DNA from: Actinomycetota bacterium
GTDB lineage: Bacteria; Actinomycetota; Acidimicrobiia; Acidimicrobiales; GCA-2861595
Assembly (NCBI GenBank): GCA_002861595.1
Contig: PJQG01000076.1
Span: 28,276-70,623 of the forward strand
Reading direction: 5' to 3'
DNA length: 42,348 nucleotides
Both the position numbers and the translations under genes were made by a program. The notes under the pieces are model-generated. The model ran no database searches and was not told where the DNA came from. It saw only the letters and a list, made by a program, of their open reading frames with translations. Within the stretch, counting starts at the first letter, position 1; each line of letters starts with the position of its first letter. This document shows, piece by piece, positions 1,708 to 37,430 of the stretch.

Positions 1708-3236
1708 GCGAGCAGGTCGGGCCCAGCGGCGAGGGGTTGGGGCCCCGGCGGGCCTATGAGACGGCGCCGGGTGGGGATGGGCCCCCCGCCTTCGGCGAGG
1801 AGCCGGGGTTGGGGCCCCGGCGGGCCTATGAGACAGTTGTCGGGTTGGAGGTCCACTGCGAGCTGCGCACGGCCACCAAGCTGTTCTGCGCCTGCCGCAA
1901 CGCCTTCGGCGACGACCCGAACACCAACGTGTGCCCCGTCTGCCTCGGGCTGCCCGGGTCGCTCCCGGTGCTCAACGCCCGGGCCGTGGAGCTGGCCATG
2001 CGCATCGGTGAAGCCCTCCACTGCGAGGTGCGCCGCAGCATCTTCCACCGCAAGAACTACTTCTATCCGGACATGCCCAAGGACTACCAGGTCAGCCAGT
2101 ACGACGAGCCCATCAACGTCGACGGCTGGCTGGAGCTGCCCGATGGGTCCCGCGTGGGCATCGAGCGGGCCCACCTGGAGGAGGACACCGGCTCCAACCG
2201 CCACGTCGGCGGCGACGGGCGAATCCACAACGCCGACTACTCCCTCGTCGACTACAACCGGGCCGGCGTCCCCCTGGTGGAGATCGTGAGCCGCCCCGAC
2301 ATCCGCTCGGCCGAGCAGGCCCGGGCCTACGTGAGCGAGCTTCGGGCCATCCTGGTCGCCATCGGTGCCTCCGACGGCAAGATGGAGGAGGGGTCTCTGC
2401 GGGTCGACGCCAACGTTTCGGTCCGCCCCGCCGGCAGCGACCAGCTCGGGACCCGCTGCGAGGTCAAGAACCTCAACTCGCTGCGCTCACTCGGCCGCGC
2501 CATCGACCACGAGGCCGCCCGCCAGTGGGAACTGCTCCAGGCCGGCGAGCGGGTCGTGCAGGAGACCCGGCACTGGAACGAGGCCCAAGGACGCACGGTG
2601 TCCGGTCGCTCCAAGGAGGAGGCCTACGACTACCGGTACTTCCCGGAGCCCGACCTGGTGCCCGTCGACCCCGGCGAGGCGTGGCGGGACGAGGTCCGCC
2701 GGGCCCTGCCCATGCTGCCCGCGGCCCGCCGGGAGCGACTGGCCAGGGCCGCGGGCCTGTCGCCCGCCGGCGTGGCCACCGTCGTCGAGCTGGACCTCGA
2801 CACACTGGTGTTGGCCGCCATCTCGGCCGGGGCGGACGGCCGCCGCGCCGTCAACCGGGCGGCCAACGAGGTGGCCGCGGATCTCGACGGCGCCCGCCGG
2901 CTGGATCCGGCCGCCTTCACCAAGCTCCTGCTGCTGGAGGACGCCGGCAAGCTCACCGCCACCCAGGCCAAGCAGGTCCTGGCCGAGATGCTGGCCAGCG
3001 GGGGCGATCCCGAGGAGCTGGCCGCAGCCCGGGGGTTCAAGGCCATGGAGGCCGCCGAGGTGGCGGCGCAGGTGGACGCCCTCATCGCCGCCCACCCGGG
3101 CGAGTGGGAGCGGTTTCGGGGAGGCGACGCCAAGGTGACCGGCTTCTTCGTGGGGAAGGTCATGAAGGCCACCCAGGGCAAGGCCGACGGCCGGGCGGTG
3201 ACGGCGCTGTTGCAGGAGCGCGCAGAGCTTTCGTGA
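1704..3236 (+). CDS. gatB: Asp/Glu-tRNA amidotransferase subunit B, with a repeat-derived N-terminal extension
   Basis: [33 protein letters not shown]; GTG overlaps the gatA stop; an alternative TTG start at 1809 is possible. Confidence 0.97.
1714..1834 (+). repeat. Coding palindromic element: internally deleted copy (~1714-1752) plus full copy (~1758-1824); exact 30-bp direct repeat at 1733-1762 and 1805-1834
   Basis: 1761-1824 matches the reverse complement of the cimA repeat unit at 56/64 positions (manual alignment); 72-bp period keeps the frame. Confidence 0.9.
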
Positions 3237-4276: not shown

Positions 4277-5485
4277 ATGGGAAAACTCAATCGCCAACTG
4301 CTGCTGTGCTGCTCGTTGAGCGCCGGCGTGCTGTTGGCCTCGGCGCCGGCGGTGTTCGCCGCTGATCCGCCCGCGCACGGCAACGCCGGCGGCAACGGCA
4401 ACGGCCAGGCCAAGGCGGGCACCTCCGCACCGGCGGCCGGCCAGGCCAACGTGGGGGCCGACCCCGGGCACGCCAGTCCGGGGAACGGTCCGGGCCAGGG
4501 GAACCCCGGTACCGGCAACGCCGGCCAGGGGGCTGCGGCCAACGAGGGCGCGGCCAACCAGGACCACAATCAGGGCCAGGGCCAGGACCAGGACCAGGGC
4601 CAGGGCCAGGGCCAGGGCCAGGGCCAGGGCAACCAGGACCAGGGCAACCAGGACCAGGGCAACCAGGACCAGGGCAACCAGGACCAGGGCCAAGGCGCCG
4701 GGACGGCTCCCCCAGGCAACAACGGGACCATCAAGGTCGATTTCGATGGGGCCGGCCTCGACCGCCGCAACAACGAGACGCACGGCTGCCCGCTCTCCGT
4801 CAAGTTCTTCAACTTCGATCCCGACCAGTGGGTCACCGTCACCTTCAGTGGCCAGGCTCCCACCCGATCTGCGCCCTTCACCGGCGGAAGAGTGAGGATG
4901 GACAACGACGGCAACGCCGTCAAGACCTACGGCGACATCGCGGCTCTGCTGGCCGCTGCCGGCGCCGCTCCCACCAAGAACGGCTATCACCTGAGAGTCG
5001 AGGCGAAGGCCGAGGGCGCTCCCGGAGGGTCGAAGACCAAGGTCGTCTGGATCAAGTGTGCCGTCGCCCCCACGGTCACGACGACCACCGTGGCTCCGAC
5101 GACCACCGCTCCGACGACCACCACGACGGTGCCCGCCGACGATTCGACCTCCGTCGACGGCACACGAGACGCGCAGAACGAGGCATCCGGCATCACGCCC
5201 GGCAACCTCAACTCGAACAGCCGCCTTGCCGTCCTCGGTGAGACCATCGAGCGCAGCCGGGCGACGGACGACGGGACCCGCACTCGCCGGGCCCGGGCCG
5301 CAGCGTCGCCCACTCGGGGCACCAACGCCGATCGCAGGGCGAGGGTCCTCGGCACCACGGTCGAGCGGGCGGGCCTGGCCCGCACGGGGTTGGACGCCTT
5401 GCAGCTCGCGACGCTCGGAGCCCTCGCTCTCTTCGCCGGGTACGCCGCCGTACGGGTGTCGCGCCGGAAGACGGAACAGAGCTAA
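4277..5485 (+). CDS. Sortase-anchored surface protein (LAXTG) with Gln/Gly repeats and a Thr-rich linker
   Basis: AGGAG RBS, signal peptide ending AVFA, C-terminal LARTG + hydrophobic helix + RRK tail. Confidence 0.85.
   Translation: MGKLNRQLLLCCSLSAGVLLASAPAVFAADPPAHGNAGGNGNGQAKAGTSAPAAGQANVGADPGHASPGNGPGQGNPGTGNAGQGAAANEGAANQDHNQGQGQDQDQGQGQGQGQGQGNQDQGNQDQGNQDQGNQDQGQGAGTAPPGNNGTIKVDFDGAGLDRRNNETHGCPLSVKFFNFDPDQWVTVTFSGQAPTRSAPFTGGRVRMDNDGNAVKTYGDIAALLAAAGAAPTKNGYHLRVEAKAEGAPGGSKTKVVWIKCAVAPTVTTTTVAPTTTAPTTTTTVPADDSTSVDGTRDAQNEASGITPGNLNSNSRLAVLGETIERSRATDDGTRTRRARAAASPTRGTNADRRARVLGTTVERAGLARTGLDALQLATLGALALFAGYAAVRVSRRKTEQS
4571..4690 (+). repeat. In-frame tandem repeats: (CAGGRC)x10 followed by (AACCAGGACCAGGGC)x4
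   Basis: Read directly; encodes QG/QD and NQDQG repeats. Confidence 0.95.
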
Positions 5486-16792: not shown

Positions 16793-16849
16793 CCCGCCGT
16801 TGCAGTACATAGCGGGCCTTTTCAGCCCCCTATGTACTCCCAAGGCGGG
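16793..16849. repeat. REP-like palindrome, copy 1 (AGTACATAG...CTATGTACT core)
   Basis: Imperfect hairpin; aligns with the reverse complement of 37384-37432. Confidence 0.85.
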
Positions 16850-20212: not shown

Positions 20213-20980
20213 GTGGCGAAGAAGGCAAAGCCGAAGAAGCGCACGCCGGGCAAGCGGCCCCAGCCGGCGAAGCGGCCCATCGCCGCCGGCCCCGCCGGCT
20301 CGTCGGCCCCCGCCGGCCGCCCCGCCGGCTCAGCCACCCCCGCCGGCCGCCCCTCGGGCTCGCCTTCGGGTGCGGCCAAGGCCACCCGCGCTGACCGCAT
20401 CGAGGCGGCCAGGCGGGCCCGTCGCCGCAAGAAGCTCCAGCTCCGCATCGCCATCGGGGCCGCCGCCGCGCTGGTGATCGGCGCCATCGCCGTCAACAGC
20501 CTCTCCAACAGGAGCGAGACCAACGCCTTCCGGGAGAAGCTGACGGCCGGCTCGTGCACCTTCGACACCCGCGACGACTCCGTCAGCGCGCCTCCGAACA
20601 ACCACGTGGCCCCGTCGTCCTACGAGGTCAACCCGCCGGCGGGCGGCAACCACGACCCGAGCCCGGCGCCGGCGGGCAACTACGAGCAGGCCACCGTCCC
20701 GCCCGATGCCAGGGTCGTGCACTCTCTCGAGCATGGCTACGTGGCCATCTGGCACCGGCCCGGGCTCCCGAAGGAGGACATGGACCTCATCACCAACGTG
20801 TTCGGCCGCTACGAGAACGACGTGCTGGTCCTTCCCCGTGCCTCGCTGCCAGCCGACACCAAGGTGGCGGCCACGGCCTGGGGCGAGCGCCTGTTGTGCC
20901 GGAACGTGGAGCAGGGCCCCCTCACCGAGTTCGTGAAGAAGTACCGCAACGAGGGCCCCGAGAAGATCCCCCACACCTGA
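20213..20980 (+). CDS. DUF3105-family membrane-anchored protein
   Basis: PPAGGNH, VHSLEHG, ATAWG, GPE; one TM helix; TACCCT-6 nt-GTG. Confidence 0.85.
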   Translation: MAKKAKPKKRTPGKRPQPAKRPIAAGPAGSSAPAGRPAGSATPAGRPSGSPSGAAKATRADRIEAARRARRRKKLQLRIAIGAAAALVIGAIAVNSLSNRSETNAFREKLTAGSCTFDTRDDSVSAPPNNHVAPSSYEVNPPAGGNHDPSPAPAGNYEQATVPPDARVVHSLEHGYVAIWHRPGLPKEDMDLITNVFGRYENDVLVLPRASLPADTKVAATAWGERLLCRNVEQGPLTEFVKKYRNEGPEKIPHT

Positions 20981-22581: not shown

Positions 22582-23184
22582 CTACCGCTTGGACCTGGTG
22601 AAGCCGTCCTCCAGGGCGGACGCCTCGTCCTCGTAGCAGCGGTCGGGCATGGTGCGGTTGTAGGCGGCCATCCCCGGCAGCTGGAAGATCCGGCTCGCCA
22701 GCTTGGCCTTCACCGGGTGCGAGGGTGGGCAGATGCGCCCGGTGGGCTCTATCCAGGTGGTGCGACCGGTGGGTGCCGCGGCCTTCTTCACGGCGGGCGC
22801 CCTCTTCGTGGGTGCAGCCTTCCTCGTCGCGGGCGCCTTCCTCGCCGGCGGCACCTCCTGCGCCGGCGGCACCTCCTGCGCCGGCGGCACCTCCTGCGCC
22901 GGCGGCACCTCCTGCGCCGGCGGCACCTCGACCGGCGTCACCTCCACCGGCGTGGGGCGGGTGACGACGGGAGCGGGCGGCACCTCCACCGGCGTGGGGC
23001 GGGTGACGACGGGAGCGGGCGGCTCGACGACGACGGGTTCCTGCACCGGTGGCCAGCTCGGGGGCACCGCCGGCGCCGAGTCGTCCTCGGAGTTGCTCCG
23101 CCGGGACTGGACCAGCTTCATCACCCCGAAGAGGATGGACGCGAGCAGAGCGGTCTTGACGCCGAGCCGCAGCATTTTCCGCAC
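22582..23184 (-). CDS. Membrane-anchored Pro-rich repeat protein with a C-terminal Ada-like/'sunset'-type small domain
   Basis: N-terminal TM helix; CPPSHPVKAKLASRIFQLPG..Y..T.PDRCY...A..DGF. Confidence 0.7.
   Translation of the reverse strand: MRKMLRLGVKTALLASILFGVMKLVQSRRSNSEDDSAPAVPPSWPPVQEPVVVEPPAPVVTRPTPVEVPPAPVVTRPTPVEVTPVEVPPAQEVPPAQEVPPAQEVPPAQEVPPARKAPATRKAAPTKRAPAVKKAAAPTGRTTWIEPTGRICPPSHPVKAKLASRIFQLPGMAAYNRTMPDRCYEDEASALEDGFTRSKR
22843..23022. repeat. Tandem repeats: 18 bp x ~4.8 (22843-22929) and 42 bp x 2 (22939-23022)
   Basis: Encode EVPPAQ and PPAPVVTRPTPVEV on the minus strand. Confidence 0.95.
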
Positions 23185-27084: not shown

Positions 27085-27635
27085 GCGGCGATGGCGTCGA
27101 GGTGGCGCAGGGTGAGGCCCACGTCGTCGAGGCCCTCCAGGAGGCGCCACCTCGTGAAGTCGTCGAGGGTGAAGGGGGCGTCGATGCCGGCGGCCGGGGC
27201 CCGCACCGTGCGCGCGTCCACGTCGACGGTGACCTCCAGGGCAGGGTCGGCGGCGACGGCGGCGAGCAGGGCCCGGGCCGTCTCCTCGTCGACCTGGGCC
27301 GGTACCAGGCCCGCCTTGGTGCAGTTGGTGCGGAAGATGTCGGCGAAGCGGGGCGAGACGACGGCGCGAAAGCCGTAGTCGGTCAGGGCCCACACGGCGT
27401 GCTCCCGGGAGCTGCCCGTGCCGAAGTTGGTTCCCGCCAGCAGGATGGTGGCGCCGGCGTGCTCCGGGCGGTTGAGCACGAAGCCGGGATCGGCCCGCCA
27501 CGCCGAGAACAGGCCGGCGCCGAAGCCGGTGCGCTCGACGCGCTTCAACCATTCGGCGGGGATGATCTGGTCGGTGTCGACGTCGGAGCGGTCGAGGGGG
27601 ACGGCGGTGCCGGCGACGGCGTGGAGGGGTTCCAT
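27027..27635 (-). CDS. leuD: 3-isopropylmalate dehydratase small subunit
   Basis: [32 protein letters not shown]. Confidence 0.97.
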
Positions 27636-29140
27636 CAGTGCCCCTCAGCCGGCCGGGGCCCCAGGTCCGGCCTCCTCCCCGAGGCGGGGGCCCCACCCCC
27701 GCCCGCGGCCGTCTCGCGCCCGTCGCCTACGGGCTGTAGCTCGTCGGGTGTGGCGAACCGGCCGGCCACGGCGGAGGCGGCGGCCACAGCCGGCGACACC
27801 AGGTGCGTGCGGCCGCCCGGGCCCTGGCGGCCCTCGAAGTTGCGGTTGGACGTGGACGCGCAGCGCTCGCCGGGGGCCAGCTTGTCGGGGTTCATGGCCA
27901 GGCACATGGAGCAGCCCGCCTCCCGCCAGTCGAAGCCGGCGGCTCGGAACACTTCGTCGAGGCCCTCGGCCTCGGCCTCCATCTTCACCAGGGCGGAGCC
28001 GGGCACGACCATGGCCCGCACGCCGGCCTTGACGCAGTGCCCGGCGAGCACGGCGGCGGCGGCCCGCAGGTCCTCGATGCGGGCGTTGGTGCAGGAGCCG
28101 ATGAAGACGGTGTCCACCGGGACGTCCCGCACGGCTGTCCCCGGGCGCAGCCCCTGATAGGCCAGCGCCCGCCGAGCCGACTCCCGCTCGGAGGCGTCGA
28201 GGAAGGTGTCGGGGTCGGGCACGCTGCCGTCGATGGGCACGACCTGGGCCGGGTTGGTGCCCCAGCTCACGAAGGGGACCAGGCCGGCGGCGTCGATGAC
28301 GACCTCCTTGTCGAAGGCGGCGCCGTCGTCGGTGGCCAGGGAGCGCCAGTCATCCAGCGCCTGCTCCCAGGCCTTGCCCTTGGGCGCATGGGGACGGCCC
28401 TGGAGGTAGGCGAAGGTGGTGTCGTCCGGCGCCACCAGGCCGGCGCGCGCACCCGCCTCGATGCTCATGTTGCACACGGTCATGCGCCCCTCCATGGAGA
28501 GGCCGCGCAGGGCCGAGCCGCGGTACTCGATCACCGAACCGATGCCGCCGCCCGTGCCGATGCGGCCGATGACGGCGAGGATGAGGTCCTTGGCCGTCAC
28601 ACCCGCCGGCAGGTCGCCCTCGACGGTGACGGCCATGGTGCCCGGGCGCACCTGGGGGAGGGTCTGGGTGGCCAGGACGTGCTCGACCTCGCTGGTGCCG
28701 ATGCCGAAGGCGAGGGCGCCGAAGGCCCCGTGGGTGGCGGTGTGGCTGTCGCCGCACACGATGGTCATGCCCGGCTGGGTGAGGCCGAGCTCGGGCCCGA
28801 TCACATGGACGATGCCCTGGTTGCGGTGGCCCATCGGGTAGAGGGGCACGCCGAACTCGGCGCAGTTGGCGGCCAGCACCTCCATCTGGCGCCGGGAGAC
28901 GGGGTCGGCCACGCCCTGGTCGAGCGCGGCGGTGGGCACGTTGTGGTCCATGGTGGCGAGGGTGAGGTCGGGCCGGCGCACGGTGCGCCCGGCCAGGCGC
29001 AGCCCGTCGAAGGCCTGGGGCGAGGTGACCTCGTGCACCAGGTGCAGGTCGATGTAGAGCAGGTCGGGCTCGCCCTCGGCCTGGTGCACCAGGTGGCGGT
29101 CCCAGACCTTCTCGCTCAGGGTCTTCGGCGTCTGTGTCAT
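27635..29140 (-). CDS. leuC: 3-isopropylmalate dehydratase large subunit with a repeat-derived C-terminal extension
   Basis: [40 protein letters not shown]. Confidence 0.97.
27649..27715 (-). repeat. Coding palindromic element copy in the leuC 3' end
   Basis: Aligns to the gatB and cimA copies; encodes [22 protein letters not shown] versus gat[23 protein letters not shown]. Confidence 0.85.
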
Positions 29141-32271: not shown

Positions 32272-33279
32272 GTGTTGGCAGACCACCATCATCGTGTCGC
32301 CGTCATCGCCGGCGACGGCATCGGCCCCGAGGTCCTCGCTGAGGCCCTGAAGGTCGTGCGTGCCTCGGGGGTGGCGCTCGACACCGTGGACTACGACCTG
32401 GGTGGCGCCCGCTACCTGCGCACGGGCGAGACGCTCCCCGACTCGGTGCTCGACGAGCTGGGGCAGGTCGACGCCATCCTCCTCGGGGCCGTCGGCGCCC
32501 CCGACGTCCCCCCCGGTGTCCTCGAGCGGGGCCTGCTCCTGCGCCTGCGTTTCGCCCTCGATCTCTACGTCAACCTGCGCCCCTTCGAGGGCGGCCGACT
32601 CGACTGCGCCGTGGTGCGGGAGAACACCGAGGGAAGCTATGCCGGCGAGGGCGGGGCCCTGCGGCGGGGGACGCCGCACGAGGTGGCCACCCAGGGCTCG
32701 GTCAACACCCGCATGGGCGTGGAGCGCTGCCTGCGCTTCGCCTTCGAGCTGGCCCAGTCGCGAGTCCGCCGCCACCTCACCCTCGTGCACAAGACCAACG
32801 TGCTGACCTTCGCCGGCGACCTCTGGCAGCGGACCTTCGACGAGCTTGCGCCGCAGTTCCCCGACGTGGCCGCGGCGTACAACCACATCGACGCCGCCTG
32901 CATCTACCTGGTCGAATCACCGGAGCGCTACGACGTGGTGGTCACCGACAACCTCTTCGGCGACATCCTCACCGACCTGGCCGGCGCCCTCTCCGGCGGC
33001 ATCGGGTTGGCGGCGTCGGCCAACCTCAACCCGGCCCGCACCGGGCCGTCGCTGTTCGAGCCCGTGCACGGGTCGGCCCCCGACATCGTGGGGACGGGCC
33101 GGGCCAACCCCCTGGCAGCCATCCGGTCGGCGGCCATGATGCTCGACTTCCTGGGCGAGGCCGACGCCGCCGCCCGTATCACCAAGGCGGTCGCCGAGAC
33201 CGCGCCCCTGTCGGTGCCCGGTGCCGGCACCGTCATCACCACCACTCAGCTGGGCGACGCCGTCGCCGAGCGGCTCTAG
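32272..33279 (+). CDS. leuB: 3-isopropylmalate dehydrogenase (actinobacterial type)
   Basis: [40 protein letters not shown]. Confidence 0.95.
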
Positions 33280-33295
33280 GCCCAGGAGGGACACA

Positions 33296-34216
33296 ATGCC
33301 ACTTCAGACCGTGGACAAGATCTGGATGGACGGCGCGCTGGTGGACTGGAAGGACGCCAACGTGCACATCCTCACCCACTCGCTGCACTACGGCTACGGG
33401 GTCTTCGAAGGCATTCGGGCCTACGCCACCAGCCAGGGGCCGGCGGTGTTCCGCCTGACCGACCACATCGAGCGGCTGTTCAACAGCGCCCGCATCTTCC
33501 TGATCGACATCCCCTTCACAGCGGAGCAGCTCATCGAGGCGACCAAGGACACGGTGCGGGTCAACGGCCTCGAGTCCTGCTACATCCGGCCCCTGGTGTA
33601 CCTGGGCTACGGCGAGATGGGGCTCAACCCGCTGCCCTGCCCGGTCAACGTGGCCATCGCCGTGTGGCCGTGGGGCACCTACCTGGGCGACGAGGCCCTG
33701 GAGCGCGGCGCCCGGATGAAGATCAGCTCGTGGCAGCGCCACGACCCCAACGCCATCCCCCCCGCGGCCAAGGGGACCGGCATGTACATCAACTCCTCGC
33801 TGGCCAAGGTCGAGGCGCTGAAGGCGGGCTACGACGAGGCCATCCTGATGTCGCCCCAGGGCTACGTGAGCGAGTGCACGGGCGAGAACGTCTTCGTGGT
33901 CAAGAACGGCCGCATCATCACCCCGCCCGCCAGCGCCGGCGCCCTCGAGGGCATCACCCAGGAGTCGGTGATGACCATCGCCCGTGACCTCGGCATCGAG
34001 TGCGAGGTCGGCCACATCCTGCGCAGCGACCTGTACACCGCCGACGAGGCCTTCTGCTCGGGCACGGCGGCCGAGGTCGTGCCCATCCGCTCGGTCGACG
34101 ACCGCGAGATCGGCCCGCGCGGGCCCATCACCACCAAGATCCAGGAGACCTTCTTCGCCACCGTGAAGGGCGAGGTCGACCGCTACAAGAACTGGCTGGA
34201 GCACGTCGATGCCTGA
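33296..34216 (+). CDS. ilvE: Branched-chain amino acid aminotransferase
   Basis: LHYG..VFEGIRAY, FRL, AKGTG.Y, ECTGEN, LEGIT, GTAAEV. Confidence 0.96.
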   Translation: MPLQTVDKIWMDGALVDWKDANVHILTHSLHYGYGVFEGIRAYATSQGPAVFRLTDHIERLFNSARIFLIDIPFTAEQLIEATKDTVRVNGLESCYIRPLVYLGYGEMGLNPLPCPVNVAIAVWPWGTYLGDEALERGARMKISSWQRHDPNAIPPAAKGTGMYINSSLAKVEALKAGYDEAILMSPQGYVSECTGENVFVVKNGRIITPPASAGALEGITQESVMTIARDLGIECEVGHILRSDLYTADEAFCSGTAAEVVPIRSVDDREIGPRGPITTKIQETFFATVKGEVDRYKNWLEHVDA

Positions 34217-36017
34217 GACTGTGTCTTCATCCCCGGCGGGGCCCCAACCCCGCCTCCTCGCTGAAGGCGGGGGCCCCGACCCCGCCCAGCGCCGTACGTC
34301 TGAGAACCCGGCGGGGCCCCAACCCCGCCTCCTCGCTGAAGGCGGGGGCCCCGACCCCGCCCAGCGCCGTACGCCCGCCGCCGTCGAGATCTACGACACC
34401 ACGCTGCGCGACGGCAGCCAGCGTGAGGGCATGTCCCTCACCGTCGAGGACAAGCTGCGGGTGGCCGAGCAGCTTGACCACCTGGGCGTGCACTACATCG
34501 AGGGCGGCTGGCCCGGCGCCAACCCCAAGGACGAGGAGTTCTTCGCGCGGGCGCCGTCGGAGCTGTCGCTGTCGACCTCCACCCTGGTCGCCTTCGGCTC
34601 CACCCGCCGGGCCGGGGCCAAGGCCGACGACGACGAGACCCTGCGCAACCTGGCCAAGGCCAACACCTCCACGGTGTGCATCGTGGCCAAGTCGTGGGAC
34701 TACCACGTGACCGAGGCGCTGCGCACGACCCTGGACGAGGCCGTGCGCATGGTCGCCGACTCGGTGGAGTTCCTGCGGGGCGCCGGCCTGCGCGTGTTCC
34801 TCGATGCCGAGCACTTCTTCGACGGCTACCTGCGGAACCCTGAGTTCAGCCTCTCGGTGCTGCGGGCGGCAGAGGACGCCGGCGTCGAGGCCCTGGTGCT
34901 GTGCGACACCAACGGCGGCACCCTGCCCCATGACGCCGAGCGGGTGGTCGGCGAGGTCGTGGGCCGCTTCGGGGTTCCCATCGGTGTGCACTTCCACGAC
35001 GACGGCGGGTGCGCGGTGGCCAACAGCCTGGCCGGCGTGCGCCAGGGCGCCACCCAGGTGCAGGGCTGCGTGAACGGGTACGGGGAGCGCACGGGCAACG
35101 CCAACCTGTGCACGATCATCCCCGACCTGACCCTCAAGATGGGCGTGAGGACGATCCCGGCGGACCGCCTGGAGCGCCTCACGCCGGTGGCCCACCACGT
35201 GGCCGAGCTGGTCAACATCACGCCCGACCCCCAGCAGCCGTTCGTGGGCCCCTCGGCCTTCGCCCACAAGGCCGGCCTGCACACCTCGGCCATCGCCCGG
35301 GCCCGCGACGCCTACGAGCACGTCGACCCCGACCTGGTCGGCAACGGCACCCGTTTCGTGGTCAGCGAGCTGGCCGGCCGTTCCACCCTGCAGTTCAAGG
35401 CCGAGGAGCTGGGACTGGACATGGACGGGGTGGCGCTGGGCCGCGTGCTGGAGCAGCTCAAGGACCTGGAGCACCGTGGCTACCACTTCGAGGCGGCCGA
35501 CGGGTCGCTGGAGCTGCTGATGCGCGGGGCCACGGGGTGGGAGCAGGCGTTCTTCCGCCTGGAGTCGTTCCGGGTCATCACCGAGCAGCGCGAGGACGGC
35601 CGCTTCGTCACCGAGGCCACCATCAAGGTGCACGTGGGCGACGAGCGCATCGTGGCCACGGCCGAGGGCAACGGCCCGGTCAACGCCCTCGACGGGGCCC
35701 TGCGCCGGGCCATGGCCGAGCGGTTCCCCGGCCTGGCCCAGCTCCACCTCACCGACTACAAGGTGCGGGTGCTGGACACGTCCAAGGGCACCGCCGCGGT
35801 CACCCGCGTGCTCATCGACTCCACCGACGGGGAGCGGTCGTGGTCCACCATCGGCGTGTCGGAGAACATCATCGAGGCGTCCTGGCAGGCGCTGGCCGAC
35901 AGCGTCGTCTACGGCCTCCTCAACCTCACCGATGACGAACATGGTGAGGAAAGCGGCGCCAGGGCGCCGCTTTCCGGTACAGGTACTGCAGCGACGAGCG
36001 CCGACGGGGCAGACTGA
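34209..36017 (+). CDS. cimA: Citramalate synthase with a repeat-derived N-terminal extension
   Basis: YDTTLRDGSQREG, EGGWPGANPKD, DAEHFFDGY, AHKAGLH, GNGPVNALD, DYKVR. Confidence 0.93.
   Translation: MPETVSSSPAGPQPRLLAEGGGPDPAQRRTSENPAGPQPRLLAEGGGPDPAQRRTPAAVEIYDTTLRDGSQREGMSLTVEDKLRVAEQLDHLGVHYIEGGWPGANPKDEEFFARAPSELSLSTSTLVAFGSTRRAGAKADDDETLRNLAKANTSTVCIVAKSWDYHVTEALRTTLDEAVRMVADSVEFLRGAGLRVFLDAEHFFDGYLRNPEFSLSVLRAAEDAGVEALVLCDTNGGTLPHDAERVVGEVVGRFGVPIGVHFHDDGGCAVANSLAGVRQGATQVQGCVNGYGERTGNANLCTIIPDLTLKMGVRTIPADRLERLTPVAHHVAELVNITPDPQQPFVGPSAFAHKAGLHTSAIARARDAYEHVDPDLVGNGTRFVVSELAGRSTLQFKAEELGLDMDGVALGRVLEQLKDLEHRGYHFEAADGSLELLMRGATGWEQAFFRLESFRVITEQREDGRFVTEATIKVHVGDERIVATAEGNGPVNALDGALRRAMAERFPGLAQLHLTDYKVRVLDTSKGTAAVTRVLIDSTDGERSWSTIGVSENIIEASWQALADSVVYGLLNLTDDEHGEESGARAPLSGTGTAATSADGAD
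34232..34373 (+). repeat. Two identical 67-bp coding palindromic elements in tandem (34232-34298, 34307-34373; period 75 bp)
   Basis: Encodes [22 protein letters not shown] twice; inverted relative to the gatB/leuC sense copies. Confidence 0.95.
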
Positions 36018-36535: not shown

Positions 36536-37398
36536 GCGCCGGCGGAGTCGTCGAGGAAATCGAGCTCCCGGCCGGGAACTGGCGCTTCCGCGGCTTGGCC
36601 GCCGGCCCGGTGGACGGGCGTCTCGTGCTGCTCCTCCACGGTTTCCCGCAGAGCTCGCAGGAGTGGCGCCACCAGCTCGTCGCCCTCGGCGACGCCGGGT
36701 ACCGAGCCGTCGCTTTCGACCAGCGCGGGTACTCCCCGGGGGCCCGCCCCGAGGGCGTCGAGCACTACCGCCTCGACCATCTGGTGGCCGACGTGCTGGC
36801 CGTGGCCGACGAGCTCAACGGCCACCAGGTCGACCTGGTCGGCCACGACTGGGGCGCGGCCGTTGCCTGGCAGCTCGCCGGCCGGTACCCCGAGCGCCTG
36901 CGCAGCCTCACGGCCGTCTCCGTGTCCCACGGCGCAGCTTTCCGGGCCGCCCTGAACAGCGCCTCCGGGGACCAGGCCCGGCGGTCGTCCTACATCGCCT
37001 TCTTCCAGCAGGAGGGGACGGCGGAGGAGGTGCTGCTGGCCGACGACGGCGCCGGCCTGCGCCGCCTGTTCGAGGCCACCGCCTTCCCGGGCGACCCTGG
37101 CCCGTACATCGCCTTGATGCAGGAGCCGGGGGCGCTCACCGCCGCTTTGAGCTGGTACCGGGCGCTGTTCGCCGGCGGTGTCGGCCCGATGGGGGCTGTC
37201 TCCGTTCCCACGCTCTATGTGTGGAGCGACCAGGACCCGGCCATCGGCCGGGAGGCGGCCGAGGGCACGGCCGCGCACGTGGAGGGCCCCTACCGCTTCG
37301 AGGTGCTCGCCGGCGTGAGCCACTGGGTCCCCGAGGCCGCCCCCGACGAGCTCAACCGCCTGCTCCTGGACCACCTCGCCGCGGTTGGGAGTACATAG
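36532..37398 (+). CDS. Alpha/beta hydrolase (epoxide hydrolase-like)
   Basis: HGFP, DQRGYS, GHDWG, SHWVPE. Confidence 0.92.
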   Translation: MSAGGVVEEIELPAGNWRFRGLAAGPVDGRLVLLLHGFPQSSQEWRHQLVALGDAGYRAVAFDQRGYSPGARPEGVEHYRLDHLVADVLAVADELNGHQVDLVGHDWGAAVAWQLAGRYPERLRSLTAVSVSHGAAFRAALNSASGDQARRSSYIAFFQQEGTAEEVLLADDGAGLRRLFEATAFPGDPGPYIALMQEPGALTAALSWYRALFAGGVGPMGAVSVPTLYVWSDQDPAIGREAAEGTAAHVEGPYRFEVLAGVSHWVPEAAPDELNRLLLDHLAAVGST

Positions 37399-37430
37399 CG
37401 GGCGGTTTCGGCCCGCTATGTACTCGCAAC
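37384..37430. repeat. REP-like palindrome, copy 2 (perfect 15-bp stem 37389-37403/37411-37425)
   Basis: GAGTACATAGCGGGC-N7-GCCCGCTATGTACTC; supplies the hydrolase TAG stop. Confidence 0.9.

What the first reader, a model, noticed from the sequence alone, without database searches (positions are those of the whole stretch)
34232..34373. A dispersed hairpin element that sits in frame inside housekeeping proteins (RPE-like coding repeat): cimA copies
Seen: cimA begins with two identical 67-bp units. Each folds as CGGGGC..CCCCGCCT-loop-AGGCGGGG-GCCCCG and contains two GGGGCCCC palindromes. No in-frame ATG/GTG/TTG lies between the repeats and the conserved DTTLRDG, so the ~50-aa insert should be translated. 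The reverse complement matches gatB 1761-1824 at 56/64 positions and also aligns to the leuC 3' end, giving five copies at three loci in both orientations with no stop introduced. All three loci adjoin translationally coupled junctions (gatA/gatB GTGA, ilvE/cimA ATGCCTGA, leuC/leuD TGATG), and I found no intergenic copy in this window. Known precedent: Rickettsia palindromic elements insert in frame into proteins. Inference: this is an analogous actinobacterial selfish element, or a junction-tuning RNA hairpin, that creates new terminal peptides. I do not know of a description of this family.
Basis: partly seen in the sequence, partly recalled or inferred. Interest (0 to 1): 0.85.

Follow-up and report, generated by a model that had tools for sequence, protein, structure and literature searches.

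The report
Double-hairpin repeat at gene junctions
The two repeats at the start of cimA are real copies of a small, hairpin-forming repeat that is scattered through this uncultured soil actinobacterium, mostly wedged between neighbouring genes but sometimes sitting in frame inside enzymes, much like known repeat families of Mycobacterium and Rickettsia.

Summary
Window 34232-34373 holds two identical 67-nt units with a 75-nt period. They lie in frame after the cimA start codon, which overlaps the ilvE stop.

They belong to a dispersed family. nhmmer finds 59 units at 38 loci in this 2.18-Mb, 86%-complete MAG. Elsewhere I found the family only in Acidimicrobiales-type MAGs.

Each unit forms two separate hairpins with strong compensatory covariation.

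Same-genus genomes have empty sites at cimA, gatB, leuC, truA, argD, miaB and purN. These are therefore recent insertions or losses.

In-frame residence in proteins is real but a minority: 11 of 38 loci (4 internal, 4 C-terminal, 3 N-terminal). The other 27 lie between genes. Several of these form mini-ORFs chained to their neighbours by ATGA/GTGA stop-start overlaps.

This is the architecture described for mycobacterial MIRUs, combined with RPE-like coding insertions. No Y1 transposase was found and there was no Rfam match.

Verdict: an undescribed member of a known kind of element.

The parts
34220..34298 (+). cimA unit 1. The core is 34232-34298. Hairpin 1 is 34235-34254 (7-bp stem, 6-nt loop). 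Hairpin 2 is 34259-34291 (5+7-bp stem, 7-nt loop). The lead-in 34220-34231 is absent from the empty alleles.
   Evidence: Repeat coordinates. Fold. Covariation of both hairpins. Empty alleles in G001 and G003. One relative's contig joins 34219 to 34374 (table 5; weak evidence).
34299..34373 (+). cimA unit 2, identical to unit 1 over 67 nt. Hairpins lie at 34310-34329 and 34334-34366. The 8-nt linker 34299-34306 joins the units.
34209..36017 (+). cimA (citramalate/isopropylmalate synthase family) ORF. The ATG at 34209 overlaps the ilvE stop at 34214-34216. The HMGL-like domain begins at residue 59, after the insert.
   Evidence: Translation. Pfam. Start-codon scan. Orthologue N-termini.
33221..34216 (+). 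Upstream ilvE-like gene. Its stop codon overlaps the cimA start.
   Evidence: ORF list. Sequence. The conserved junction in relatives.
1731..1835 (-). gatB array in the opposite orientation: one full unit (core 1761-1824) plus a partial unit. An 8-nt direct repeat lies on both sides. The array sits in frame between the native GTG (1704, overlapping the gatA stop) and the conserved GatB N-terminus. An in-frame TTG at 1809 inside the element could serve as an alternative start.
   Evidence: Pfam GatB_N starts at residue 44.
27645..27715 (+). leuC copy. It is in model orientation on the + strand, so it is opposite to leuC, which is on the - strand. It is read in frame as a C-terminal tail of about 26 residues. 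The leuC stop at 27635-27637 overlaps the leuD start.
   Evidence: Pfam Aconitase ends at residue 586 of 627.

Best explanation
The cimA repeats are two tandem copies of a lineage-specific, non-autonomous dispersed repeat of about 62-78 nt. Each unit carries two adjacent GC-rich stem-loops separated by a CCTCCTC-type spacer.

The family spreads, or has recently spread, within genomes of an uncultured Acidimicrobiales family. Copies survive almost only where they do no harm:
- in the short junctions between co-transcribed genes;
- at the extreme ends of coding sequences;
- in a few tolerant surface loops.

The core has essentially no stop codons in any frame. A copy whose length keeps the frame is therefore simply translated.

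At stop-start overlaps (xTGA), the insertion regenerates an xTGA on both sides. Either a mini-ORF inside the element or a read-through tail of the upstream protein then hands ribosomes on to the next gene, so translational coupling is kept.

At cimA, the insertion landed a few codons after the native ATG. CimA is therefore predicted to carry about 51 extra N-terminal residues.

What is shown: the family, the hairpins and their covariation, the empty and filled sites, the positions and the frames.
What is inferred: mobility by an enzyme, translation of the inserts, and preserved coupling.
For: Family size:
- 59 units at 38 loci.
- Tandem periods of 72-78 nt at 10 loci.

Structure:
- Two hairpins with 8 of 20 pairs showing compensatory changes, 42 cells, reached by 0 of 500 shuffles. 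Slid controls gave 1-6 cells.

Position:
- 5 of 38 loci lie deep inside called genes (4 after curation), against 61.5% expected for random windows. Binomial P is about 1e-9.

Empty versus filled sites among four same-genus genomes give at least three different presence patterns:
- cimA: filled in G000 and G002.
- gatB and leuC: filled in G000 and G003.
- miaB: filled in G000, G002 and G003.
- glyA and the pab-like locus: filled in G000 and G001.
- truA, argD, purN and atpH: filled in G000 only.

Short native sequences are repeated on both sides of insertions:
- 8 nt at gatB.
- 6 nt at truA.
- xTGA at atpH and at C53:101541.

ATGA-type motifs are enriched at the unit ends:
- TCAT is in the 5' flank of 15 of 48 units, against a 3.3% background.
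- TCA is at the 3' flank of 12 of 50 units, against 6.9%.

Mini-ORF or read-through chains with -4/-1 overlaps occur at C70, C79:13187, C76:40459, C27, C34, C80:55930 and C90, and at C53:101541, glyA and folE.

Stop codons: 4 of 192 frame readings of the core contain one.

Older copies in miaB of G000 and G002 have decayed hairpins.

An AlphaFold2 model of TruA keeps a confident fold (pLDDT 85.8). The 48-residue insert is an unstructured loop with pLDDT below 50.
Against: - No mobilising enzyme was identified. Y1 transposase was absent from this genome and from 21 of 21 other genomes of the family. No other transposase families were searched.
- The element boundaries and any target-site duplication are not cleanly defined. 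The linkers between units resemble each other across loci. At argD, no flanking direct repeat was seen.
- Gains and losses were not polarised on a tree.
- No RNA or protein data show that the inserts are translated.
- At purN, the net insertion is 74 nt. It puts the native GTG out of frame and leaves no canonical start. This is either a harmful copy, an assembly error or an unusual initiation.
- All genomes are short-read MAGs. 9 of 59 units abut N runs, so copy numbers are uncertain.
- Strong hairpin covariation could also reflect a host function.
Confidence: 0.7

Rival explanations
1. The units are host-selected cis-acting RNA (or DNA) hairpins. They would tune expression at operon junctions, for example by stabilising mRNA segments, pausing ribosomes, or supplying a ribosome-binding site. 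They would not be selfish DNA.
For: - Both hairpins covary strongly.
- 19 of the 27 non-coding loci lie between co-directional genes.
- In the commoner orientation, the single-stranded spacer reads as a Shine-Dalgarno-like GAGGAGG. A TTG lies in the following loop. At gatB that TTG is in frame with the gene.
- Stop-start overlaps are kept at both ends.
Against: - The element occurs in both orientations relative to the genes: 20 opposite, 13 same, 5 mixed.
- Presence varies locus by locus among same-genus genomes.
- Copies sit inside enzymes in all three frames.
- The mini-ORF peptides differ in frame between loci.
- The miaB copies have decayed hairpins.
- No uridine tract follows the hairpins.
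Confidence: 0.15
2. It is a REP/REPIN-type element mobilised by a RAYT (Y1/HUH) transposase that recognises the hairpins as single-stranded DNA.
For: - The hairpins are GC-rich, short and covarying.
- The family is dispersed at about 60 copies.
- Copies are often found just after stop codons.
Against: - Pfam Y1_Tnp was found in 0 of 22 genomes of the family, including this one. Of the 21 others, 13 carry the element. It was found in only 2 of 41 relatives, both in other families and both without the element. The control genomes were detected.
- Units are direct double hairpins in head-to-tail arrays, not inverted REP doublets.
- MAG incompleteness (70-100%) weakens this negative result.
Confidence: 0.07
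3. The cimA duplication and other arrays are assembly artefacts of a short-read MAG, with repeats collapsed or mis-joined. The real cimA would carry no units, or a different number.
For: - In the run that holds 88% of the stretch's words, contigs stop inside unit 1 and restart in unit 2 (table 8).
- 9 of 59 units are next to N runs, and 2 of 188 contig ends hold a unit.
Against: - The family appears in independent assemblies of more than 20 species, at orthologous sites and in frame.
- Flanks on both sides of the cimA array are unique and colinear with the relatives.
- Any whole number of 75-nt units keeps the frame.
Confidence: 0.08

Closest known systems
MIRU (mycobacterial interspersed repetitive units; Supply et al. 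1997, known to me only through passages of PMC12548453 section 11 and PMC3184786 section 9)
   Same: - Units of 40-100 bp, with about 40-50 copies per genome.
- They lie between genes of operons, often as tandem arrays.
- They contain ORFs whose ends overlap the flanking genes' stop and start (-4 spacing).
- Short direct repeats lie at filled sites, and related genomes have empty sites.
All of these features are seen here.
   Different: - The host lineage is different (Acidimicrobiales MAGs).
- Sequence relatedness to MIRUs was not tested, because no MIRU sequence was at hand.
- This family has two covarying hairpins.
- It also sits inside enzymes (4 internal loci), which the passages I read do not report for MIRUs.
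RPE (Rickettsia palindromic elements; Ogata et al. 2000, 2002, known to me through passages of PMC10969869 section 13 and PMC3184786)
   Same: - A palindromic repeat inserted in frame into unrelated housekeeping genes.
- The insert is predicted to be compatible with the protein fold. The TruA model has an unstructured loop in an otherwise confident fold.
   Different: - RPEs are about 100-150 bp and are mostly within ORFs, and each encodes a conserved peptide.
- Here units are 58-78 nt, and only 11 of 38 loci are in ORFs.
- All three frames and both strands are used, so no conserved peptide exists.
- The exact pattern scan found the family in no Rickettsia record.
REP/BIME and REPIN-RAYT systems of proteobacteria
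   Same: - Short GC-rich hairpins with compensatory variation.
- Clustered arrays at 3' ends and between operon genes.
   Different: - No Y1/RAYT gene was found.
- Units are direct double hairpins.
- Many copies are translated or overlap start and stop codons.
Prokaryotic MITEs that fuse to ORFs (Correia/NEMIS, ERIC, BOX/RUP/SPRITE; passages of PMC3184786 section 15 and PMC10969869 section 13)
   Same: - Small non-autonomous repeats with inverted-repeat ends.
- Flanking short duplications.
- Occasional 5', 3' or internal in-frame fusions.
   Different: - No parent insertion sequence is known.
- Terminal inverted repeats are only implied by the two similar hairpins.
- The duplication length is not fixed (4, 6 or 8 nt in the cases examined).

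Membership tests
MIRU-like intercistronic repeat | Lies between co-directional genes of an operon | tested here: met
   19 of the 27 non-coding loci lie between co-directional genes by my own gene calls. The 11 coding loci are also in co-directional contexts.
MIRU-like intercistronic repeat | An internal ORF whose start and stop overlap the stop and start of the flanking genes (-4 spacing) | tested here: met
   - C53:101541: GTGA, then 24 codons, then ATGA.
- atpF/atpH: ATGA, then 52 codons, then ATGA.
- C70 and C76:40459.
- glyA and folE arrays.
This is not universal. Other loci show read-through tails or no chain.
MIRU-like intercistronic repeat | Tandem arrays of 40-100-bp units with variable copy number | tested here: met
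   Periods are 57-78 nt, with arrays of 2 to at least 5 units. Copy number differs between congeners at leuC, miaB, folE and glyA.
MIRU-like intercistronic repeat | Sequence homology to mycobacterial MIRUs | not tested
   No MIRU sequence was available from a tool. The exact-pattern scan of 185,579 species' genomes returned only Acidimicrobiales-type MAGs.
RPE-like coding palindrome | In-frame insertion within protein-coding genes without disrupting them | tested here: met
   truA (+144 nt), argD (+75), miaB-like (+75) and herA-like, plus termini of cimA, gatB, leuC, rarA, a Zn-dehydrogenase and a small ORF.
RPE-like coding palindrome | Most copies are inside ORFs and encode a conserved peptide | tested here: not met
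   11 of 38 loci are in ORFs. Three sense frames and antisense frames are all used.
REP/RAYT (REPtron) | An associated Y1 (HUH) transposase gene in the genome | tested here: not met
   PF01797 was found in 0 of 1 (own genome) and in 0 of 21 other genomes of the family. Controls were positive in 6 of 14 reference genomes. The MAGs are 77-98% complete.
MITE | Terminal inverted repeats and a target-site duplication of fixed length | tested here: inconclusive
   - The outer arms of the two hairpins are mutually complementary only when both stems match.
- Flanking direct repeats of 4, 6 and 8 nt are seen at four loci, and none at argD.
Rfam RNA families | Score at or above a family's gathering threshold | tested here: not met
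   The best match was Corio-PBP at 20.6 bits, against a gathering score of 63.5, with E = 0.18.

The most novel reading that the evidence does not exclude
The element is a self-contained 'coupling cassette'. It homes specifically to overlapping stop-start codons (xTGA) by a mechanism that does not use a Y1 transposase. It brings its own stop, its own start and a Shine-Dalgarno-like spacer held between two structurally constrained hairpins. This lets it colonise the tightest operon junctions of a compact genome without polar effects, and as a by-product it seeds new terminal and loop peptides in essential enzymes. The hairpins would be the recognition structure of a still unknown mobilising enzyme.
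Probability: 0.2. Interest if true: 0.7.

Novelty: new member of a known kind. Interest (0 to 1): 0.5.

Why it matters
The finding shows that the two classic behaviours of small bacterial repeats can belong to one family. These are MIRU-style residence in translationally coupled junctions and RPE-style in-frame residence in housekeeping enzymes. Here they occur together in a deep, uncultured actinobacterial lineage where no repeat family has been described.

Practical consequences:
- The units break short-read assemblies.
- They inflate or distort gene calls, producing false long N- and C-termini, mini-ORFs and apparent frameshifts such as the one at purN.
- They could serve as variable-number markers for strain typing in metagenomes.

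Biological interest:
- The family offers natural test cases for how much extra disordered peptide TruA, ArgD, MiaB, CimA, GatB and LeuC tolerate.
- It also offers test cases for whether translational coupling survives a 70-nt hairpin insert.

Tried and rejected
It is rejected because it shows no covariation beyond shuffles, and one pair is unpaired in 18 of 32 units.
- Rfam. Nothing came near a gathering score.
- RAYT/IS200 partner. None was found.
- Alternative genetic code. A preprint reports ACA=Asp in some Acidimicrobiales (10.64898/2026.05.03.722492; I saw only the abstract and outline). In six genes of this genome, ACA codons align with Thr in relatives in 28 of 51 aligned cells and never with Asp, so I kept the standard code.
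- Read laying. Only contigs were available. The likely source run does not bridge the units. Relatives' contigs in two other runs join ilvE to cimA while skipping 153-175 nt. One of them leaves a single letter between 34219 and 34374. These had depth 2-20 and sides of about 30 nt at 88% likeness, so I treat them as a weak hint of empty alleles and nothing more. No RNA run held more than 6% of the words, so nothing can be said about expression.
- My chain-following script. It failed to find an upstream gene at 12 of 38 loci and chose wrong ORFs at some others. I use only the loci that I could also read by eye.
- My gene finder. It is home-made, based on a codon-usage log-odds score, and covers 81% of the assembly. 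It mis-called a + strand gene at C90, which I corrected by hand.
- One search was an aborted script.
- One search failed on a frame error and was corrected.
- One search used a 17-residue query by mistake and found nothing.
- Supplementary files of papers were not consulted. They may hold repeat catalogues that I could not see.
- I did not use the search for homologous proteins, complex prediction, the protein-atlas search or fold search.
Full report
OBSERVATION

Window 34232-34373 contains two 100%-identical 67-nt units with a 75-nt period (repeat finder D2; TRF score 284). The cimA ORF (34209-36017) starts with an ATG that overlaps the ilvE stop (ATGCCTGA). It reads through both units without a stop.

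The only in-frame canonical start codons near the units lie upstream of them. The next one is 60 nt past the array, inside the conserved domain. Pfam places the HMGL-like domain from residue 59.

The reverse complement matches 1761-1824 in gatB at 56/64 positions. A weaker copy lies at 27649-27715 at the 3' end of leuC.

A DISPERSED FAMILY

The window lies in a 2.18-Mb, 94-contig, 71% GC assembly that is 85.8% complete. Iterated nhmmer starting from the 67-mer converged on 59 units at 38 loci.

Ten loci hold head-to-tail arrays of 2 to at least 5 units, with periods of 57-78 nt and mostly 72-78. Nine units abut N runs and two contig ends hold a unit. Arrays are therefore probably under-assembled.

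Two variants exist:
- A subfamily with a different second hairpin: C7:29432, C47:29168, C76:40459 and C93:14206.
- Units that lack the first hairpin: C16, C17, C19, C26, C41 and C88.

STRUCTURE

An alignment of 32 distinct full-length units (A1) supports two separate hairpins:
- Hairpin 1 has an 8-bp stem around a CCCCAA-type loop.
- Hairpin 2 has a 5+7-bp stem with a one-base bulge around a 7-nt loop.
- A CCTCCTC-type spacer joins them.

93% of cells are paired, and 8 of 20 pairs carry compensatory double changes (42 cells). None of 500 shuffles reached this value. Sliding the partners by 1-3 columns left only 1-6 such cells.

The two stems vary independently.

The minimum-free-energy fold of 34200-34390 shows the same two hairpins per unit, with a z-score of -2.8.

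WHERE THE COPIES SIT

I built a codon-usage gene finder and ran a frame-by-frame scan. I checked the results by eye and with Pfam. The 38 loci divide as follows.

- Four loci are internal to genes and in frame: truA (two units), a miaB-like radical-SAM gene (inside the TRAM domain), argD, and a herA-like DUF87 ATPase.
- Four loci are read-through C-terminal tails, with the stop at most 20 nt after the array and touching the next start. These are leuC, rarA/mgsA, a zinc dehydrogenase (three units) and a small ORF on C90.
- Three loci are N-terminal:
  - cimA, where the insert cannot be avoided;
  - gatB, where the native GTG is upstream and a possible TTG lies inside the element;
  - purN, discussed under 'Caveats'.
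- The remaining 27 loci lie outside recognisable protein frames. Of these, 19 are between co-directional genes, 4 are between convergent genes and 4 are unclear.

Only 5 loci (4 after curation) lie deep inside called genes, against 61.5% of random windows (P about 1e-9).

Relative to the neighbouring genes, 20 loci are in the gatB orientation, 13 are in the cimA orientation and 5 are mixed. The cimA copies are therefore in the minority orientation.

The 65-nt core contains a stop in only 4 of 192 frame readings. Open frames are thus a by-product of composition.

EMPTY AND FILLED SITES

I compared three other genomes of the same genus (G001-G003), plus more distant relatives.

- cimA: G001 and G003 keep the ATG-over-stop junction and a short N-terminus without any unit. 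G002 has a different, partly decayed copy a few bases away, in frame.
- gatB: G001 and G002 are empty, with an ATGA overlap and a short N-terminus. G003 has exactly one unit: 64 nt plus an 8-nt direct repeat, 72 nt in all. G000 has 1.4 units flanked by an 8-nt repeat that is native gatB sequence.
- leuC: G001 and G002 are empty (TAATG junction). G000 has one unit and G003 has two, both read in the leuC frame.
- truA: all 14 relatives searched lack the 144-nt insert. A 6-nt native motif flanks each unit.
- argD: the 8 relatives examined lack the 75-nt insert. No flanking repeat was evident.
- miaB-like: G000 (+75 nt) and G002 (+69 nt) carry copies with decayed stems. G003 has 1.5 intact units. 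G001, G005, G007 and G008 are empty.
- atpF/atpH, folE, a pab-like junction and glyA show further filled/empty combinations.

Among four congeners, the presence patterns differ from locus to locus. This requires several independent gains or losses.

JUNCTION ARCHITECTURE

At C53:101541 the empty allele is a GTGA stop-start overlap. The filled allele has GTGA, then 67 nt of element, then ATGA. The old start now opens a 24-codon mini-ORF whose stop overlaps the new start.

At atpF/atpH a 52-codon mini-ORF spans two units between two ATGA overlaps. glyA and folE show chains of such overlaps.

Where the upstream frame misses the stop, the protein instead reads through the units to a stop that touches the next start. 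This happens at leuC, rarA, the dehydrogenase and C90.

ATGA-type motifs are enriched at the unit ends. TCAT lies within 22 nt of the 5' end in 15 of 48 units, against a 3.3% background. TCA lies at the 3' end in 12 of 50, against 6.9%.

I could not decide whether these motifs are target duplications or part of the element. The linkers resemble each other across loci. The argD copy carries such a motif that its empty alleles lack.

DISTRIBUTION AND PARTNERS

A 19-base degenerate pattern matched 15 of 41 related genomes. That is 13 of 21 in the same family and 1 in another family of the order. The reversed control matched none.

A slightly longer pattern was scanned over one genome for each of 185,579 species. 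It returned 64 stretches, all from MAGs labelled Acidimicrobiales, Acidimicrobiia, Actinomycetota, Actinobacteria or Actinomycetes, plus one labelled Frankiaceae.

The Y1 transposase family was not found in this genome, nor in any of the 21 other genomes of the family. It occurs in two genomes of other families, and both lack the element. Rfam gave no match near threshold.

PROTEIN CONSEQUENCE

An AlphaFold2 model of TruA was built from 12 sequences. It has mean pLDDT 85.8 and pTM 0.78. The insert (residues 173-209 of the modelled chain) has pLDDT below 50 and no secondary structure. It lies between confidently modelled elements. This is a prediction, not evidence that the insert is translated.

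INTERPRETATION

The simplest account is a small non-autonomous repeat that has been moving within this lineage and is retained where it is harmless. Mobility is inferred from three observations: the incongruent filled/empty patterns, the short flanking repeats, and the decay of old copies.

The covariation shows that both hairpins matter. They could matter for propagation or for a host function, and I cannot tell which.

The main rival is a host-selected junction hairpin. It fits poorly with the use of both orientations, the copies inside enzymes in all frames, and the turnover between congeners.

COMPARISON WITH KNOWN FAMILIES

The junction behaviour matches MIRUs as described in two reviews. 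MIRUs are 40-100-bp units, about 40-50 per genome, that sit in operon intergenic regions. Their ORFs overlap the neighbours' ends, and they are said to insert at start codons with -4 coupling. Tetranucleotide direct repeats and empty sites in a related species are also reported. I saw passages of PMC12548453 section 11 and PMC3184786 section 9. I did not read the primary paper.

The coding insertions match the RPE idea (passages of PMC10969869 section 13). However, most copies here are not in ORFs and no conserved peptide exists.

Four full-text searches found no description of a repeat family in Acidimicrobiales. The library lacks most subscription journals, and supplements were closed.

CAVEATS

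- All genomes are short-read MAGs.
- The gene calls are my own.
- Six relatives are unpublished. They enter only the tallies.
- Element boundaries, the mobilising mechanism, transcription and translation are untested.
- The purN copy (net +74 nt) leaves the gene without an in-frame canonical start, and this remains unexplained.

Noticed in passing
G000 contig C45:10881-10938 (locus L008:679-749, - strand): One unit sits at the 5' end of purN. Compared with G001 and G002, which start at a GTG, the net insertion is 74 nt. The native GTG is now out of frame, and no in-frame ATG/GTG/TTG exists before the formyltransferase domain. This could be an assembly indel, a non-canonical start or a damaged gene.
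   Followed up: partly
window 16804-16843 and 37385-37424: This is a second, unrelated palindromic repeat. It consists of two 40-nt stretches that are 85% complementary to each other. Each is itself a hairpin with AT-containing stems, and each lies after a gene end (I5). It may be a terminator-like dispersed hairpin.
   Followed up: no
window 4530-4692, 22793-23032 and 20257-20362: Several in-gene tandem repeats are present: periods of 6/15 nt (about 9-20 copies), 18 nt (5 copies), 42 nt (2 copies) and 30 nt (3.5 copies). They are probably low-complexity protein repeats.
   Followed up: no
G000 C16:15099, C17:30267, C19:1069-1175, C26:4820, C41:9784, C88:14978: These units lack the first hairpin exactly (one arm plus the loop), as if it had been removed by slippage between the stem arms.
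   Followed up: no
G000 C7:29432-29557, C47:29168, C76:40459, C93:14206: This subfamily has the same first hairpin but a different second hairpin and loop. All copies lie in the cimA orientation, right after a stop codon.
   Followed up: no
window 1790-1811 and the equivalent place in other units read on the gatB strand: In the commoner orientation, the spacer between the hairpins reads as a Shine-Dalgarno-like GAGGAG(G). A TTG lies 6-7 nt downstream in the loop of the next hairpin. At gatB this TTG is in frame with the gene.
   Followed up: partly
L224 (G001), spacer between the upstream gene and folE: The 'empty' folE junction of G001 holds a 12-nt perfect palindrome that resembles the element's first stem. 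It may be a remnant of an excised or collapsed unit.
   Followed up: no
cimA, gatB and leuC of the window, plus truA, argD and miaB of G000: I checked the ACA codon because a preprint reports ACA=Asp in some Acidimicrobiales. The 7 ACA codons in these six genes align with Thr in 28 of 51 aligned cells and never with Asp. The standard code appears to apply.
   Followed up: yes
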